The notes beneath the pieces were generated by a model, which saw nothing but the letters and a program-made list of their open reading frames with translations, did no database searches and had not been told where the DNA came from. This document shows positions 45,608-54,360 of a stretch of DNA of 64,000 nucleotides, piece by piece (the stretch's first letter is position 1; every line of letters starts with the position of its first letter). This stretch comes from Thermoplasmata archaeon (GTDB lineage: Archaea > Thermoplasmatota > Thermoplasmata > GCA-020350865). Position numbers and translations under genes: made by a program. The stretch is from contig CP070751.1 in the NCBI GenBank assembly GCA_020348445.1, positions 420,494-484,493 on the forward strand. Reading direction: 5' to 3'.

Positions 45608-47521
45608 TCAATGTATTATTCTCACTGTGTCGGATCCTTCAAAAGACATGCCGCCAATAAGCTGTCCCGTGACCTTGAATTCAGCAGGTCTTCCGTAGCC
45701 TCCTCCTACTACCAGATCCTCAAGATCACCGCGGTCGAACTTCACATTCAAAGAGTCCCCTGTCAGTGTTGGATTTTCGGCCGGAATAATACTCTCCAGA
45801 TACATTGTTGCTGGATCAATATCTGCCTCATCATAACCATCTGGCAGCTTGATTATGCACGAGACCCATTTGCCATTGCTCTTGAGATTCAATGTCTCTG
45901 GGTGGATCTCTATATCTGCGGGAATCAATTTTATCAATTGGGTCAGATAAGCCTTTGCACCCCACAATTGCAGGGTCTGGGTCCAGTAGGCCCTAACGCC
46001 TGTTAAGTTGGTACCTGGTTTGACCCACACTCCAAAGTGCACCCACTCGCAGTGCTCAATGGGATGGTCCGGGTCCTTCCATATGATTTCTGTACCTTTT
46101 CCGCTGGGAAGCCAGGTGATATGCGGTGGAGTTCCCCATCCGCCGTATAAAGTGGGTCCCCAAGTCTTGTTCACCCAGTAATAGCTGGGAGCCTTTCCCT
46201 TCCAGTACCATTTATCTATGTCCGATGGCTGCACCCCGAATAGCTCCAACTCGAAATTATCGACTTTCTCATGGTAGTCGTTGTGTACGTCGAAGTTAAC
46301 CAACTGGCCGACTATGGTCGGAGTGCTATTGGCCTCTATTATGGCTTCATTGACAAAATGGCCCTCGATGATATTGGGAGTGGATCCAAATGCCACAGTG
46401 TAGCGAACCAAAACAGCTCTATCGCCTGGATTGGTGGGAATATCATACTCCAAAACATCACCGGCTTCCATTATGGCTGGGTCCCTGATTCCATCTCCAT
46501 CCATGTCCACATCTATCTCTTCCCAAGGTAACATCTCTGTCCCATCCCATGTGAGGTCATCCAACGGGATTTCGTCCTGAAGGACCACGAAGTCACGGAG
46601 AAGTGCCGCGGGCTCTGGGTGCGGTTCGCCGGCCGGGGGTTCTGGCTCGTATACAATAAAATCTGTTACTCCTCCGGAAAATTGTCTCCAGAACTGAATT
46701 GGTGCTGGAATGCGCTTTACCTTCTTCTCCAGTCTGAGGGCAACACCGAAATGGATCCACTCGCATGGCTGAACAGGATGACCCGGGTCTATCCATTCTA
46801 TCTCTATGCCACCTGGTATAGTGTTAATCTGCGGTGGTGCGCCCCAACCCCCATACCATACTGTTCCAAGGGATGTGTTGTACCGGGTAGGTGGACCTGC
46901 TGGATCGTAGACATAGAGAATATCGTCTGGTTCTATATTGCCGTAAAGCTCCAGCTCGAAGTTGTCAATGGGTTCGTGATAGTCGTTGTGAACGTCGAAG
47001 TTCGAAAGGGAGCCCCTAATGGCTGGGGGACTTCCTCTCTCGAGTATGGCCTCGTTGATGAAATGTGCCTCGATCACATCGGGAGAAGATTCCCACGCCA
47101 CTGAGTATCGAACTAAAACTGCATTGTCGTTATCGGTAATGGGTATTGTTACCCTTATTTCTCCGTTTAAGGGTATTAATGCGCCTGGGTATGGATCTAT
47201 CTCAACCCAATGTTGTCGCAGTATTTCTGGGTCCTGTATTGTGAGATGGTTTAGTGGAATTGCCATATCTGCCACAGCATACTCGCGCTGAACATATACT
47301 CCATCATCAGTTCCTGGTGGATCGAAGAATATGATGTCCTCAACACCGATTACAGCTTCCCCTGTTGGATCTGTAGGGTCCCTTACGATTCGCCACTTCT
47401 GCCACGGGACCGGGATCTTTTTCACTTTCTTTACATCATAATCTCCCGCTGTGGGAGTCACGAATAGCGCCATTGCTACCAATGCTAAACAAAGCAACAC
47501 GCTTATCGCTTTTCCTCGCAT
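45608..47521 (-). CDS. Secreted protein with a tandem-duplicated ~235-aa unknown domain and a TLNLKSxGKW-type C-terminal domain
   Basis: Signal peptide; two copies of AVLVRY...HFxNEAI...NFDVHNDYHE..DNFELEL...YGGWG.PP...CEW.HFGV. Strong RBS. Confidence 0.85.
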   Translation of the reverse strand: MRGKAISVLLCLALVAMALFVTPTAGDYDVKKVKKIPVPWQKWRIVRDPTDPTGEAVIGVEDIIFFDPPGTDDGVYVQREYAVADMAIPLNHLTIQDPEILRQHWVEIDPYPGALIPLNGEIRVTIPITDNDNAVLVRYSVAWESSPDVIEAHFINEAILERGSPPAIRGSLSNFDVHNDYHEPIDNFELELYGNIEPDDILYVYDPAGPPTRYNTSLGTVWYGGWGAPPQINTIPGGIEIEWIDPGHPVQPCEWIHFGVALRLEKKVKRIPAPIQFWRQFSGGVTDFIVYEPEPPAGEPHPEPAALLRDFVVLQDEIPLDDLTWDGTEMLPWEEIDVDMDGDGIRDPAIMEAGDVLEYDIPTNPGDRAVLVRYTVAFGSTPNIIEGHFVNEAIIEANSTPTIVGQLVNFDVHNDYHEKVDNFELELFGVQPSDIDKWYWKGKAPSYYWVNKTWGPTLYGGWGTPPHITWLPSGKGTEIIWKDPDHPIEHCEWVHFGVWVKPGTNLTGVRAYWTQTLQLWGAKAYLTQLIKLIPADIEIHPETLNLKSNGKWVSCIIKLPDGYDEADIDPATMYLESIIPAENPTLTGDSLNVKFDRGDLEDLVVGGGYGRPAEFKVTGQLIGGMSFEGSDTVRIIH

Positions 47522-48246: not shown

Positions 48247-49326
48247 TCATTTGACTCTAAAGGCATTGCTTTCCCCCTCGAATTCTGTACCATCAACGAA
48301 CTTTCCTGTGATTTTTATGTTGTATACACCTGGTGGAAAGACGTCTTCCATTTCGCTGCGATCGAACTTGACCATTCGTTCAAGTATACCGTCATTGTCT
48401 TCATCCTTGATGTAACCGTCCTCTGACTTCACGAACCCGTATTTCTCATTTAATTCCGGCGGAATCGATTTTTCCATGAGGATCGTTTTTGGATTTATAT
48501 CTCTGACAGATAATGTGTCATTGATTTCGATATAGACGGTGACCCAATTTCCGCGCACACCTCCAGTTTTAAGGATGTTCAGTGTTGGAGGATTTATTTC
48601 TACACCAATAACAGTAACAGGAGGTACCTCTTTGGTGATGATCCCAAATCCCATATCCAGCGAATCGCCAGTCTCGGGGTCCCTCAGTTCCTCCCATGTT
48701 ATCGAATTGGGATCTCCGCCGGCCCAGTATCCCCAGACCGCATCATCCTCCCATTGAACATTAGAGGTCTTCCAGCCCCAAATGCCACCGGTGGCCGTTA
48801 CCTGAATGTCAAGCCAATAGATAGTTCCCAATTCCTGATAGTAGGCATCACCATCAGGGATGGTAACTTGATATTCGTACCAAAATTCATGATCATCCAA
48901 GTTCCATACATCATTATGGGGATCAAGCCAATTCTGCGTTGAATTAATTTGTGGTAGTATGTAGTCTGGCAGTGCGTTGTAGGACCACAGCTCATCACCC
49001 GGTTTACTGAAAAGAGGGCCAGGGCCATCCGGATCAGGGATATTTTCGTGAAGGCTCAGATGCACGTTCGTGATAATACCTATTTGATCCTCTTCCCATG
49101 ATCCCCAAAAACGAATTCCTACAATCAATCCGCTCTTGTTGCAAGGAAAGTCATCTGCCAAGATTGCAGGCCAGGTGGCGTTCACGTCCCAGCCACCTGG
49201 ATTCGGCGACTGTAAATACATGGGTTCAACCAAGGGATCGCCGCTCACAGTTCTCATTTCTGGTAAAACTGCACAGGTACCAATCAACAAAACACAGACC
49301 AAAATTCCAACTATTTCCTCTCTCAT
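48247..49326 (-). CDS. Secreted protein (ADDF...FWGSW jelly-roll-like domain + TLN-type C-terminal domain)
   Basis: Signal-like N-terminus; LADDFPC...IRFWGSW and YWLDI motifs. C-terminus is similar to that of the 45608-47521 product. Confidence 0.82.
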   Translation of the reverse strand: MREEIVGILVCVLLIGTCAVLPEMRTVSGDPLVEPMYLQSPNPGGWDVNATWPAILADDFPCNKSGLIVGIRFWGSWEEDQIGIITNVHLSLHENIPDPDGPGPLFSKPGDELWSYNALPDYILPQINSTQNWLDPHNDVWNLDDHEFWYEYQVTIPDGDAYYQELGTIYWLDIQVTATGGIWGWKTSNVQWEDDAVWGYWAGGDPNSITWEELRDPETGDSLDMGFGIITKEVPPVTVIGVEINPPTLNILKTGGVRGNWVTVYIEINDTLSVRDINPKTILMEKSIPPELNEKYGFVKSEDGYIKDEDNDGILERMVKFDRSEMEDVFPPGVYNIKITGKFVDGTEFEGESNAFRVK

Positions 49327-53654: not shown

Positions 53655-53686
53655 GGCCAAGTCAAAAAATAAAAAAAGGGGAGAGA
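53655..53686 (-). terminator. U-rich archaeal terminator-like tract after the tail-tube gene
   Basis: On the - strand, CTCTCTCCCCTTTTTTTATTTTTT follows the stop codon. Confidence 0.5.
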
Positions 53687-53689
53687 GAC

Positions 53690-54196
53690 TCAGGCCCTCT
53701 CGATAAGTTCGGTTTGTATCACGATCACCTCGACAGCTACACCGCTTGGGTTCGAATCCAACGGTTCAATATAATAAGCTGAAGGCCAACATCCATGGGC
53801 GTTGTACCTTGCCTTCTCGGTGTGTCCGTGGTCCATAAACACGATGGACATGGATTTCTTATCTACAGGGTAATCGAGATTGGATTCGTACCACAGCCAG
53901 AGCTCGTCGTTGTCTATCAATCCCCGCCTCAGGATTATGGGGCCGTAATGGGCATTCCCAGGCATTAGGGTGACCCTGTTTGGATCAGTTCCGTCCCTGT
54001 ATTCGATGACCTCCATCTTTCCGCAAACTCCTTCCACACTCATGTACGATGCCGAGGCTATACCATCTATCTCAACCACGAAGTTCGAGCTGGGCAGGGG
54101 CTCAGGTTTTCCACCTGCGGGTGCAAGAGCAATTGTGCTGGATCCGATGATAAACGCCAGGACACCGAATATCGCGAATAATATCCTCCTGCTCAT
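53690..54196 (-). CDS. Phage T4 gp19/eCIS (Afp1-like) tail-tube protein with N-terminal export signal peptide
   Basis: F.VEIDG...F/Y..V.G, IEYRDG, MPG...YG.I.LRRG, LW.W, KK..SI...D, WP and VAVE.I..Q.E motifs match the gp19 tube consensus as I recall it. N-terminus MSRRILFAIFGVLAFIIGSSTIALA. ATG 54196 follows AGGAGGTGA. Confidence 0.88.
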   Translation of the reverse strand: MSRRILFAIFGVLAFIIGSSTIALAPAGGKPEPLPSSNFVVEIDGIASASYMSVEGVCGKMEVIEYRDGTDPNRVTLMPGNAHYGPIILRRGLIDNDELWLWYESNLDYPVDKKSMSIVFMDHGHTEKARYNAHGCWPSAYYIEPLDSNPSGVAVEVIVIQTELIERA

Positions 54197-54199
54197 GAT

Positions 54200-54360
54200 T
54201 TCACCTCCTCCCATGTTTGGGGAACTGGGTATTTCTTATGCGCCCCTCCTCGGCGCATTCTTCTTTAAAAAATTGAAGAGGATAATTCTTATTTATCAGT
54301 AAAAAATGTCATAATACGGGTTCTGCTTATTTTATATCATCACCTCCCAGAGCTCTGGCC
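54200..54360 (-). ncRNA. Conserved structured 5' leader, copy 4 (shorter)
   Basis: 5' hairpin CCAGAGCTCTGG, GGGAGGTGA, TGCGCCGAGGAGGGGCGCA (54240-54257), then AAATACCCAGTTCCCC..GGGAGGAGGTGA before ATG 54196. Confidence 0.62.

What the first reader, a model, noticed from the sequence alone, without database searches (positions are those of the whole stretch)
53690..54196. Orphan phage/eCIS tail-tube (gp19-like) gene with an export signal peptide: candidate domesticated extracellular nanotube
Seen: a 168-aa ORF whose mature part fits the T4 gp19/Afp1 tube consensus. It starts with a signal peptide (SRR-ILF, hydrophobic core, ALA cleavage-like site; twin-arginine-like). It has its own leader, RBS and U-rich terminator. 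The window has no sheath, baseplate, spike, tape-measure, AAA ATPase, capsid or integrase gene. Known: tube proteins of phages, eCIS and T6SS (Hcp) assemble in the cytoplasm, lack signal peptides and normally sit in structural gene clusters. Inference: a tube subunit repurposed for Sec/Tat export that may polymerise outside the cell as a filament, conduit or scaffold. It lies between two large FG-GAP surface proteins.
Basis: partly seen in the sequence, partly recalled or inferred. Interest (0 to 1): 0.88.

Follow-up and report, generated by a model that had tools for sequence, protein, structure and literature searches.

The report
Exported solitary phage-tail-tube protein, archaeal
A lone archaeal gene encodes the inner-tube building block of phage-tail-like injection machines. 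It carries a conserved export signal, and the genome has no sheath or baseplate, so the tube module seems to be re-used outside the cell for a purpose still unknown.

Summary
Window 53690-54196 (-) encodes a 168-aa protein. Residues ~33-167 are a PF06841/TIGR02241 tail-tube domain. The AF2 model (pLDDT 90.8) matches Pvc1, Afp1, AlgoCIS and Streptomyces tube proteins at TM 0.82-0.88. Residues 1-25 form a Sec-type signal peptide (n-region, hydrophobic core, ALA|P). It is kept in all 43 full-length relatives at 50-82% identity.

The twin arginine is not conserved (5 of 45), so the Tat reading is not supported. The complete 5.16-Mb genome has no sheath, gp25, Baseplate_J or VgrG-type hub gene. It has only a second, signal-less tube gene beside a Pvc16_N gene 120 kb away.

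The tube gene carries a 5' leader hairpin found 23 times in the genome. In 22 of those cases it precedes a signal-peptide gene, which independently supports export. Four copies of the mature domain are predicted to pack side by side like ring subunits (0.56 against 0.02 for the best control). This pass may come from likeness to solved tubes.

About 50 of the top 150 family representatives elsewhere also carry export signals. This scan has found such exported orphan tube proteins before on other DNA, and I found no paper that describes them. The function is unknown, and polymerisation outside the cell is untested.

The parts
53690..54196 (-). Complete coding sequence of the exported tube protein (168 aa plus stop)
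54122..54196 (-). Signal peptide, residues 1-25: n-region MSRR, h-region ILFAIFGVLAFII, c-region GSSTIALA. Likely cleavage before P26.
   Evidence: Conserved in 43 full-length relatives. R3, A25 and P26 are among the least variable N-terminal positions. AF2 models a helix at residues 3-18.
53693..54121 (-). Mature tube domain, residues 26-168 (143 aa), the same length as canonical CIS tube proteins (141-149 aa)
   Evidence: PF06841 over residues 36-163. Foldseek to 7adz, 6j0b, 6rao, 7b5h and 9gts at TM 0.82-0.88. phmmer against PDB.
54201..54208 (-). Shine-Dalgarno box GGAGGTGA, 4 nt before the ATG
   Evidence: Sequence. The same box is read as 'MGGGE' in over-extended homolog calls P0011 and P0031.
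54240..54256 (-). 5' leader hairpin GCGCC-GAGGAGG-GGCGC, shared with other secreted-protein genes
53671..53701 (-). Terminator-like hairpin overlapping the stop codon, followed by CCCTTTTTTT

Best explanation
The gene encodes a stand-alone tail-tube subunit of the contractile-injection-system type (PF06841/TIGR02241). It is made with a Sec-type signal peptide, so the tube domain ends up on the outer face of the archaeal membrane. Most likely the signal is cleaved after ALA25, leaving a 143-aa mature protein. Less likely, the protein stays tethered by an uncleaved signal anchor. Outside the cell the subunits most likely self-associate laterally into Hcp/Cis1-like rings and possibly stack into short tubes, without sheath, baseplate or spike. 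The assembly would serve as a surface or matrix component. Shown here: the fold, the conserved signal, the solitary gene, the absence of machine genes and the shared 'secretome' leader. Inferred: actual export, cleavage and ring formation. Unknown: the cellular role.
For: Fold and family: PF06841 at 103 bits and TIGR02241 at 101.8 bits. AF2 pLDDT is 90.8 and Foldseek E-values are 1e-11 to 1e-10 with TM 0.82-0.88 to Alg1, Pvc1, Afp1, All3324 and Streptomyces CIS tubes.

Signal: the n/h/c N-terminus is kept in all 43 full-length relatives down to 50% identity. No alternative in-frame start exists before the domain.

Genome-internal support for export: the leader hairpin upstream of the gene occurs 23 times in the genome and 0 times for the reversed control. 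In 22 cases it precedes an ORF with a signal-like N-terminus, against a base rate of 23-33%. The hairpin is also upstream of tube orthologs in four other genomes or contigs.

Cleavage: leader-bearing paralogs end their signal with GSAVA followed by Q, G, D, A or P, so Pro at +1 seems tolerated in this organism.

Wider family: about 50 of the top 150 50%-identity representatives carry signals, including lipobox types. One is fused to a Kazal domain, which is an extracellular module.

Solitary status: the own genome has no sheath, gp25, Baseplate_J or Phage_GPD gene. Five other genomes of the class with the exported type have no sheath or Pvc16_N gene. No neighbour is conserved.

Self-association: four copies of residues 26-168 score ipSAE 0.56 against 0.02 for the best of 3 controls. 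The runs agree in at least 95% of contacts and the partner pLDDT is at least 76. In the tool's calibration this mark was reached by 20 of 30 proteins solved as pairs of one chain and by 1 of 23 solved as single chains. The contacts are lateral, with residues 139-155 against 51-61 and 72-79. Solved tube rings exist, so the pass may come from memory.
Against: No experimental or transcript evidence exists for this gene. No signal-peptide predictor could be run. Pro at +1 of the AxA site blocks signal peptidase I in bacteria and eukaryotes (textbook knowledge), so cleavage is uncertain. The 21-residue hydrophobic span could instead be a membrane anchor. Canonical tubes need a baseplate hub, an adaptor and a tape measure to nucleate and set length, and none is present. 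The score against the CIS1 equivalog model is far below its cut-off (53 against 220). Predicted interface residues are not more conserved than the rest of the domain (p=0.2). The gene is missing from three genomes of the same genus, so it is accessory.
Confidence: 0.6

Rival explanations
1. The N-terminal segment is an uncleaved signal anchor. The tube-fold domain is displayed on the outer membrane face as a tethered monomer or as a ring held by six transmembrane helices. It acts as a surface scaffold or pore-like collar rather than a free filament.
For: The hydrophobic span I5-A25 is 21 residues long, which is transmembrane-helix length. The A-P that follows is nearly invariant, and Pro at +1 is unfavourable for signal peptidase I. 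AF2 models residues 3-18 as a helix with pLDDT 83-86. Only about 7 residues link the span to the conserved N-arm.
Against: A polar G-S-S break splits the span into a 13-residue core and an AxA c-region, which is a typical signal-peptide layout. Secreted paralog families in the same genome show GSAVA followed by P. Bacterial relatives have plainly cleavable or lipobox signals.
Confidence: 0.25
2. The gene is a decaying remnant of a lost prophage tail or eCIS. The hydrophobic N-terminus is incidental and the protein has no present function.
For: The tube gene is solitary and patchily distributed: 9 of 401 genomes of the class, and absent from three genomes of the same genus. Its composition is atypical. 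GC is 0.51 and GC3 is 0.59, both in the top 1% of long ORFs in a 0.42-GC genome.
Against: There are 45 intact relatives at 50-82% identity in different genomic contexts. The signal, RBS and leader hairpin are all conserved. The fold is predicted with high confidence. Signal-bearing forms cluster on the tree: 17 changes against 48 expected.
Confidence: 0.05
3. The protein is a Tat substrate. The tube protein folds, and perhaps forms hexamers, in the cytoplasm and is exported folded through TatC.
For: This copy has S-R-R-I-L-F followed by an uncharged stretch, and the genome encodes TatC.
Against: RR is present in only 5 of 45 relatives. Most have RK, RN, RS or TK. The F-L-K part of the motif is absent.
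Confidence: 0.07
4. It works in the cytoplasm together with the second tube gene and its Pvc16_N neighbour as parts of a minimal tube-plus-cap system.
For: A second PF06841 gene (151 bits) sits next to a Pvc16_N gene at G000:C1:594425-595479.
Against: The paralog lacks any signal and is only 31% identical. The two loci are 120 kb apart. Other genomes with the exported type have no Pvc16_N gene. The positive-inside rule puts this domain outside the membrane.
Confidence: 0.03

Closest known systems
Cis1-type inner-tube proteins of extracellular, thylakoid-anchored and cytoplasmic contractile injection systems: Pvc1 (6j0b), Afp1 (6rao), AlgoCIS Alg1 (7adz), Anabaena All3324 (7b5h) and the Streptomyces CIS tube (8bl4, 9gts)
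   Same: Same fold (TM 0.82-0.88, rmsd about 2 A over 140 residues). Same domain length after signal removal (143 aa). Conserved N-arm and the W102 helix. 23-26% identity. Predicted lateral ring-type contacts.
   Different: It carries a Sec-type signal peptide. It is not encoded with sheath, baseplate, spike, tape measure or ATPase genes. It falls far below the CIS1 and CIS5 equivalog cut-offs (53 against 220 and 52 against 260).
T4 gp19 and other myophage tail-tube proteins (5w5f, 5iv5)
   Same: Same Pfam family (PF06841) and fold (TM 0.62-0.69).
   Different: A more distant structural match. No phage genes lie nearby. The protein is exported.
Hcp (TssD) of type VI secretion
   Same: Related tube fold (TM 0.5-0.7 to 6bdc, 8gra and 7yw0). 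Hcp forms stand-alone hexameric rings and is found outside cells.
   Different: Hcp has no signal peptide and leaves the cell by sheath contraction. There is no Pfam Hcp match here.
Exported orphan tube-fold proteins noted earlier in this scan on other genomes (e1-1575566, e1-5243788, e1-5222042, e1-736979, e1-3013118)
   Same: A solitary PF06841 gene with an export signal and no machine genes. The group is large, found in several phyla, and apparently has no published description.
   Different: This one belongs to an archaeal (Thermoplasmata-class) clade with a conserved A-x-A-P junction. It carries a leader hairpin shared with the organism's other secreted-protein genes.

Membership tests
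PF06841 / TIGR02241 tail-tube superfamily | Profile HMM score above the curated cut-off | tested here: met
   PF06841 at 103 bits against 28.2. TIGR02241 at 101.8 bits against 62.4.
PF06841 / TIGR02241 tail-tube superfamily | Tube fold: a beta-sandwich with one helix and a long beta-hairpin | tested here: met
   AF2 pLDDT 90.8. Foldseek TM 0.82-0.88 to solved CIS tubes.
CIS1 inner-tube protein of a contractile injection system (NF053769 equivalog) | Equivalog HMM score above the cut-off | tested here: not met
   53.4 bits against a cut-off of 220. CIS5 scores 52 against 260.
CIS1 inner-tube protein of a contractile injection system (NF053769 equivalog) | Encoded with sheath, baseplate (gp25, Baseplate_J) and spike-hub genes | tested here: not met
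   The 5.16-Mb single-contig genome has no PF04984, PF04965, PF04865 or PF05954 match. The marker-based completeness figure is 82%.
CIS1 inner-tube protein of a contractile injection system (NF053769 equivalog) | Cytoplasmic assembly, with no export signal | tested here: not met
   A conserved N-terminal signal is present.
Sec (SPase I) signal-peptide proteins | Basic n-region, hydrophobic h-region, and a polar c-region with small residues at -3 and -1 | tested here: met
   MSRR / ILFAIFGVLAFII / GSSTIALA, conserved in 43 relatives. Read from the sequence only.
Sec (SPase I) signal-peptide proteins | Call by a trained predictor (SignalP, DeepTMHMM) and demonstrated cleavage | not testable with these tools
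   No predictor is available. Pro at +1 leaves cleavage open.
Tat substrates | Conserved twin arginine in the S/T-R-R-x-F-L-K motif | tested here: not met
   RR is present in 5 of 45 relatives. TatC is present in the genome.
T6SS Hcp | Match to the Hcp/TssD profile and a T6SS gene context | tested here: not met
   Only PF06841 matches. No sheath or hub gene is found.

The most novel reading that the evidence does not exclude
Exported tube subunits self-assemble outside the cytoplasm, with no sheath, baseplate or tape measure, into a new kind of extracellular or membrane-anchored protein nanotube or ring. This would be a domesticated phage-tail part serving as a conduit, collar or matrix filament in archaea and many bacteria.
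Probability: 0.25. Interest if true: 0.85.

Novelty: new variant of a known kind. Interest (0 to 1): 0.6.

Why it matters
Tail-tube proteins are textbook cytoplasmic parts of phage tails, tailocins, eCIS and T6SS. A large, conserved set of tube proteins with export signals and no accompanying machine would mean the tube module has a second, unstudied life at the cell envelope. This archaeal clade shows that the re-use crosses the domain boundary. It is a small, soluble 143-aa target, so the question can be tested directly by expressing it and looking for rings or tubes. The shared leader hairpin also marks a candidate regulon of secreted proteins in an uncultured sediment archaeon.

Tried and rejected
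Expression: no RNA holder is listed for the stretch. Only sediment-metagenome DNA runs hold it.

Taxonomic spread through genome contigs: alignment A2 was too diverse to give search patterns. The A1 patterns gave 24 pattern hits but no confirmed relative.

Interface conservation: predicted interface residues are no more conserved than the rest of the domain (mean entropy 1.08 against 0.91, p=0.21). This is uninformative because the non-interface set includes the buried core.

Literature: five full-text searches found no description of signal-bearing PF06841 proteins. The nearest items are a secretome study listing a Phage_T4_gp19 protein among abundant extracellular proteins (10.1101/2024.11.06.622250) and highly transcribed gp19 genes linked to sheath genes in Myxococcota (PMC11937823).

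Rfam: no family matches the leader.

Leader-bearing genes: Pfam on 19 of them showed no other injection-system part. The hits were C-type lectin, DUF7901 and FG-GAP/PKD, and most proteins had no match.

Other rejections: P0099, a 1236-aa hit with 7 stretches, has no PF06841 match and was dropped. The Tat route was rejected (see rivals). A functional link to the FG-GAP neighbours was rejected because it is not conserved beyond close relatives.

Full report
THE OBSERVATION. The ORF lies on the minus strand at 53690-54196 and encodes 168 aa. The start is well defined. GGAGGTGA (54201-54208) lies 4 nt before the ATG at 54196. The alternative ATG at 54214 only reads through that box as MGGGE. The same artefact appears in the homolog calls P0011 and P0031, which shows that the box is conserved at the DNA level. 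No other in-frame start precedes the tube domain, so the hydrophobic N-terminus must be translated. A hairpin overlapping the stop codon is followed by CCCTTTTTTT. Pfam gives PF06841 Phage_T4_gp19 at 103 bits (cut-off 28.2) over residues 36-163. NCBIfam gives TIGR02241 at 101.8 bits (cut-off 62.4).

FOLD. An AlphaFold2 model built on 144 aligned sequences has mean pLDDT 90.8. It shows a helix at residues 3-18, a linker, and then the tube fold. Foldseek against the PDB returns inner-tube and tube-adaptor chains of AlgoCIS, PVC, Afp, the Anabaena thylakoid-anchored CIS and the Streptomyces CIS. E-values are 1e-11 to 1e-10, target-normalised TM is 0.82-0.88 and rmsd is about 2 A. T4 gp19, siphophage tubes and Hcp follow further down. 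phmmer against PDB sequences finds the same proteins at 1e-10 to 1e-6. After removal of residues 1-25 the protein is 143 aa, the length of canonical Cis1 proteins. Its N-arm (GGKPEPLPSSNF) aligns with theirs.

THE SIGNAL. The N-terminus has a basic n-region (MSRR), a 13-residue hydrophobic core, a polar G-S-S break and an A-L-A motif followed by P. A search of 5.8 billion proteins gave 45 relatives at 50-82% identity. One is named 'phage tail protein [Thermoplasmata archaeon]'. All 43 full-length relatives keep this N-terminus. R3, A25 and P26 are among its least variable positions. The twin arginine is not kept: 5 of 45 have RR and the others have RK, RN, RS or TK. The family is therefore a Sec family and not a Tat family, although TatC is present in the genome.

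Whether the signal is cleaved is open. Pro at +1 blocks signal peptidase I in bacteria and eukaryotes (textbook knowledge). However, a paralogous family of small secreted proteins in this same genome ends its signal with GSAVA followed by Q, G, D, A or P. This suggests that Pro is tolerated there. By the positive-inside rule, the domain faces outward either way.

INDEPENDENT SUPPORT FOR EXPORT. The 5' leader of the tube gene holds a hairpin, GCGCC-GAGGAGG-GGCGC, at 54240-54256 on the minus strand. The hairpin also lies upstream of two neighbouring signal-peptide genes, encoding a DUF7901 protein and a 637-aa protein. A variant lies upstream of asd. Genome-wide the 17-mer (at most 1 mismatch) occurs 23 times, against 0 for the reversed control. 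In 22 of the 23 cases an ORF with a K/R n-region and a hydrophobic core starts 25-220 nt downstream. The same crude criterion is met by 23-33% of ORFs of 200 aa or more. The hairpin is also present upstream of tube orthologs in four other genomes or contigs, including two other families of the class. It matches no Rfam family. The tube gene therefore carries the mark of this organism's secreted-protein genes. None of the other leader-bearing genes encodes an injection-system part.

SOLITARY STATUS. The genome is one 5.16-Mb contig, with marker completeness 82%. It has no match to Phage_sheath_1, GPW_gp25, Baseplate_J, Phage_GPD or CIS_tube. It does hold a second PF06841 gene (151 bits, no signal, 31% identical). 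That gene lies next to a Pvc16_N gene, 120 kb away among sugar-nucleotide and housekeeping genes.

In 401 genomes of the class, PF06841 is found in 9. Three genomes of the same genus lack it. Five of the carriers have the exported type, and none of these five has a sheath or Pvc16_N gene. Neighbours differ between homologs. FG-GAP proteins flank the gene only in close relatives. The gene's GC (0.51) and GC3 (0.59) lie in the top 1% of long ORFs in a 0.42-GC genome. Together with the patchy distribution, this fits an accessory and possibly transferred gene.

WIDER FAMILY. An exhaustive search of 1.84 billion representatives gave 2310 hits. Of the best 150, about 50 carry a hydrophobic N-terminal signal. 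These include lipobox forms, tandem tube-tube proteins, a gp19-CIS_tube fusion and a fusion to a Kazal domain. On a FastTree of 144 rows the signal label needs 17 changes, against 48 for shuffled labels. The query sits in a 23-row all-signal clade with support 97. The sample is biased towards signal-bearing hits, and the tree rests on only 136 columns. Earlier notes of this scan describe the same class of exported orphan tube proteins on other genomes. I reached the same picture independently here. Five literature searches found no description of it.

MECHANISM. Four copies of residues 26-168 were folded together. The score was 0.56 against 0.02 for the best of three controls. The runs agree in at least 95% of contacts and the partner pLDDT is at least 76. 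In the tool's calibration the mark was reached by 20 of 30 proteins solved as pairs of one chain and by 1 of 23 solved as single chains. The contacts are lateral: strand and loop 139-155 of one copy pack against 51-61 and 72-79 of the next, as between ring neighbours. Because tube rings have been solved, the pass may reflect likeness rather than a retained interface.

My best reading has three steps: Sec export, probable cleavage, and self-association into rings and perhaps short tubes at the cell surface. The role is unknown. Export is supported by several lines of evidence. Ring formation is inferred, and tube formation is speculative. Canonical tubes need a hub, an adaptor and a tape measure to nucleate, and none is present here.

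VERDICT. The protein is a member of the tube superfamily but fails every test for a CIS1 machine component. It is a new variant of a known kind. It is an archaeal member of a large, apparently undescribed group of exported tube proteins that this scan has met before.

Noticed in passing
window 54240-54256 (-); also upstream of 45608-47521 (-) and 48247-49326 (-); 23 sites in G000: A 17-nt leader hairpin, GCGCC-GAGG(T/A)GG-GGCGC, has a loop that resembles a Shine-Dalgarno box. It precedes 22 signal-peptide genes genome-wide and also tube orthologs in other genomes. It matches no Rfam family. It is a candidate regulatory or ribosome-standby element of a secretome regulon.
   Followed up: partly
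G000:C1:594425-595479 (L004:2327-3479, - strand), 120 kb beyond the window: A second, signal-less PF06841 tube gene (151 bits) lies directly beside a Pvc16_N (cap/terminator-like) gene. The pair sits among sugar-nucleotide, ICMT-like and radical-SAM genes, with no sheath or baseplate. It is a minimal tube-plus-cap pair of unknown role.
   Followed up: partly
L021, L022, L025, L027, L029, L030 (G000 sites near 3.17, 3.18, 4.77, 3.86 and 2.24 Mb): A family of six paralogous secreted proteins of about 158-171 aa. Their signal ends in GSAVA, and each has the leader hairpin. None has a Pfam match.
   Followed up: no
window 53690-54196: The tube gene's GC (0.51) and GC3 (0.59) are in the top 1% of long ORFs in a 0.42-GC genome. 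This points to possible horizontal acquisition or strong codon bias.
   Followed up: partly
L010:462-1493 (-), genome G273: In another genome of the class, a signal-less gp19 gene lies next to a protein with a weak CIS_tube match (E=2e-4) fused to TPR repeats.
   Followed up: no
P0158, P0116, P0048, P0084 (metagenomic representatives): Signal-bearing multi-domain relatives: DUF5667 + gp19 + Kazal inhibitor domain, gp19 + CIS_tube fusion, and tandem gp19-gp19 proteins.
   Followed up: partly
L003:314-12277 (-) and L004:11325-17486 (-): Two giant ORFs of 3987 aa and 2053 aa lie near the second tube locus. They were not examined.
   Followed up: no
L014:1483-1941 (-), genome G075 (P0063): This ortholog is called with a truncated signal (MATVVIAP...), although the leader hairpin lies 111 nt upstream. 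The cause is probably a mis-called or non-canonical start.
   Followed up: no
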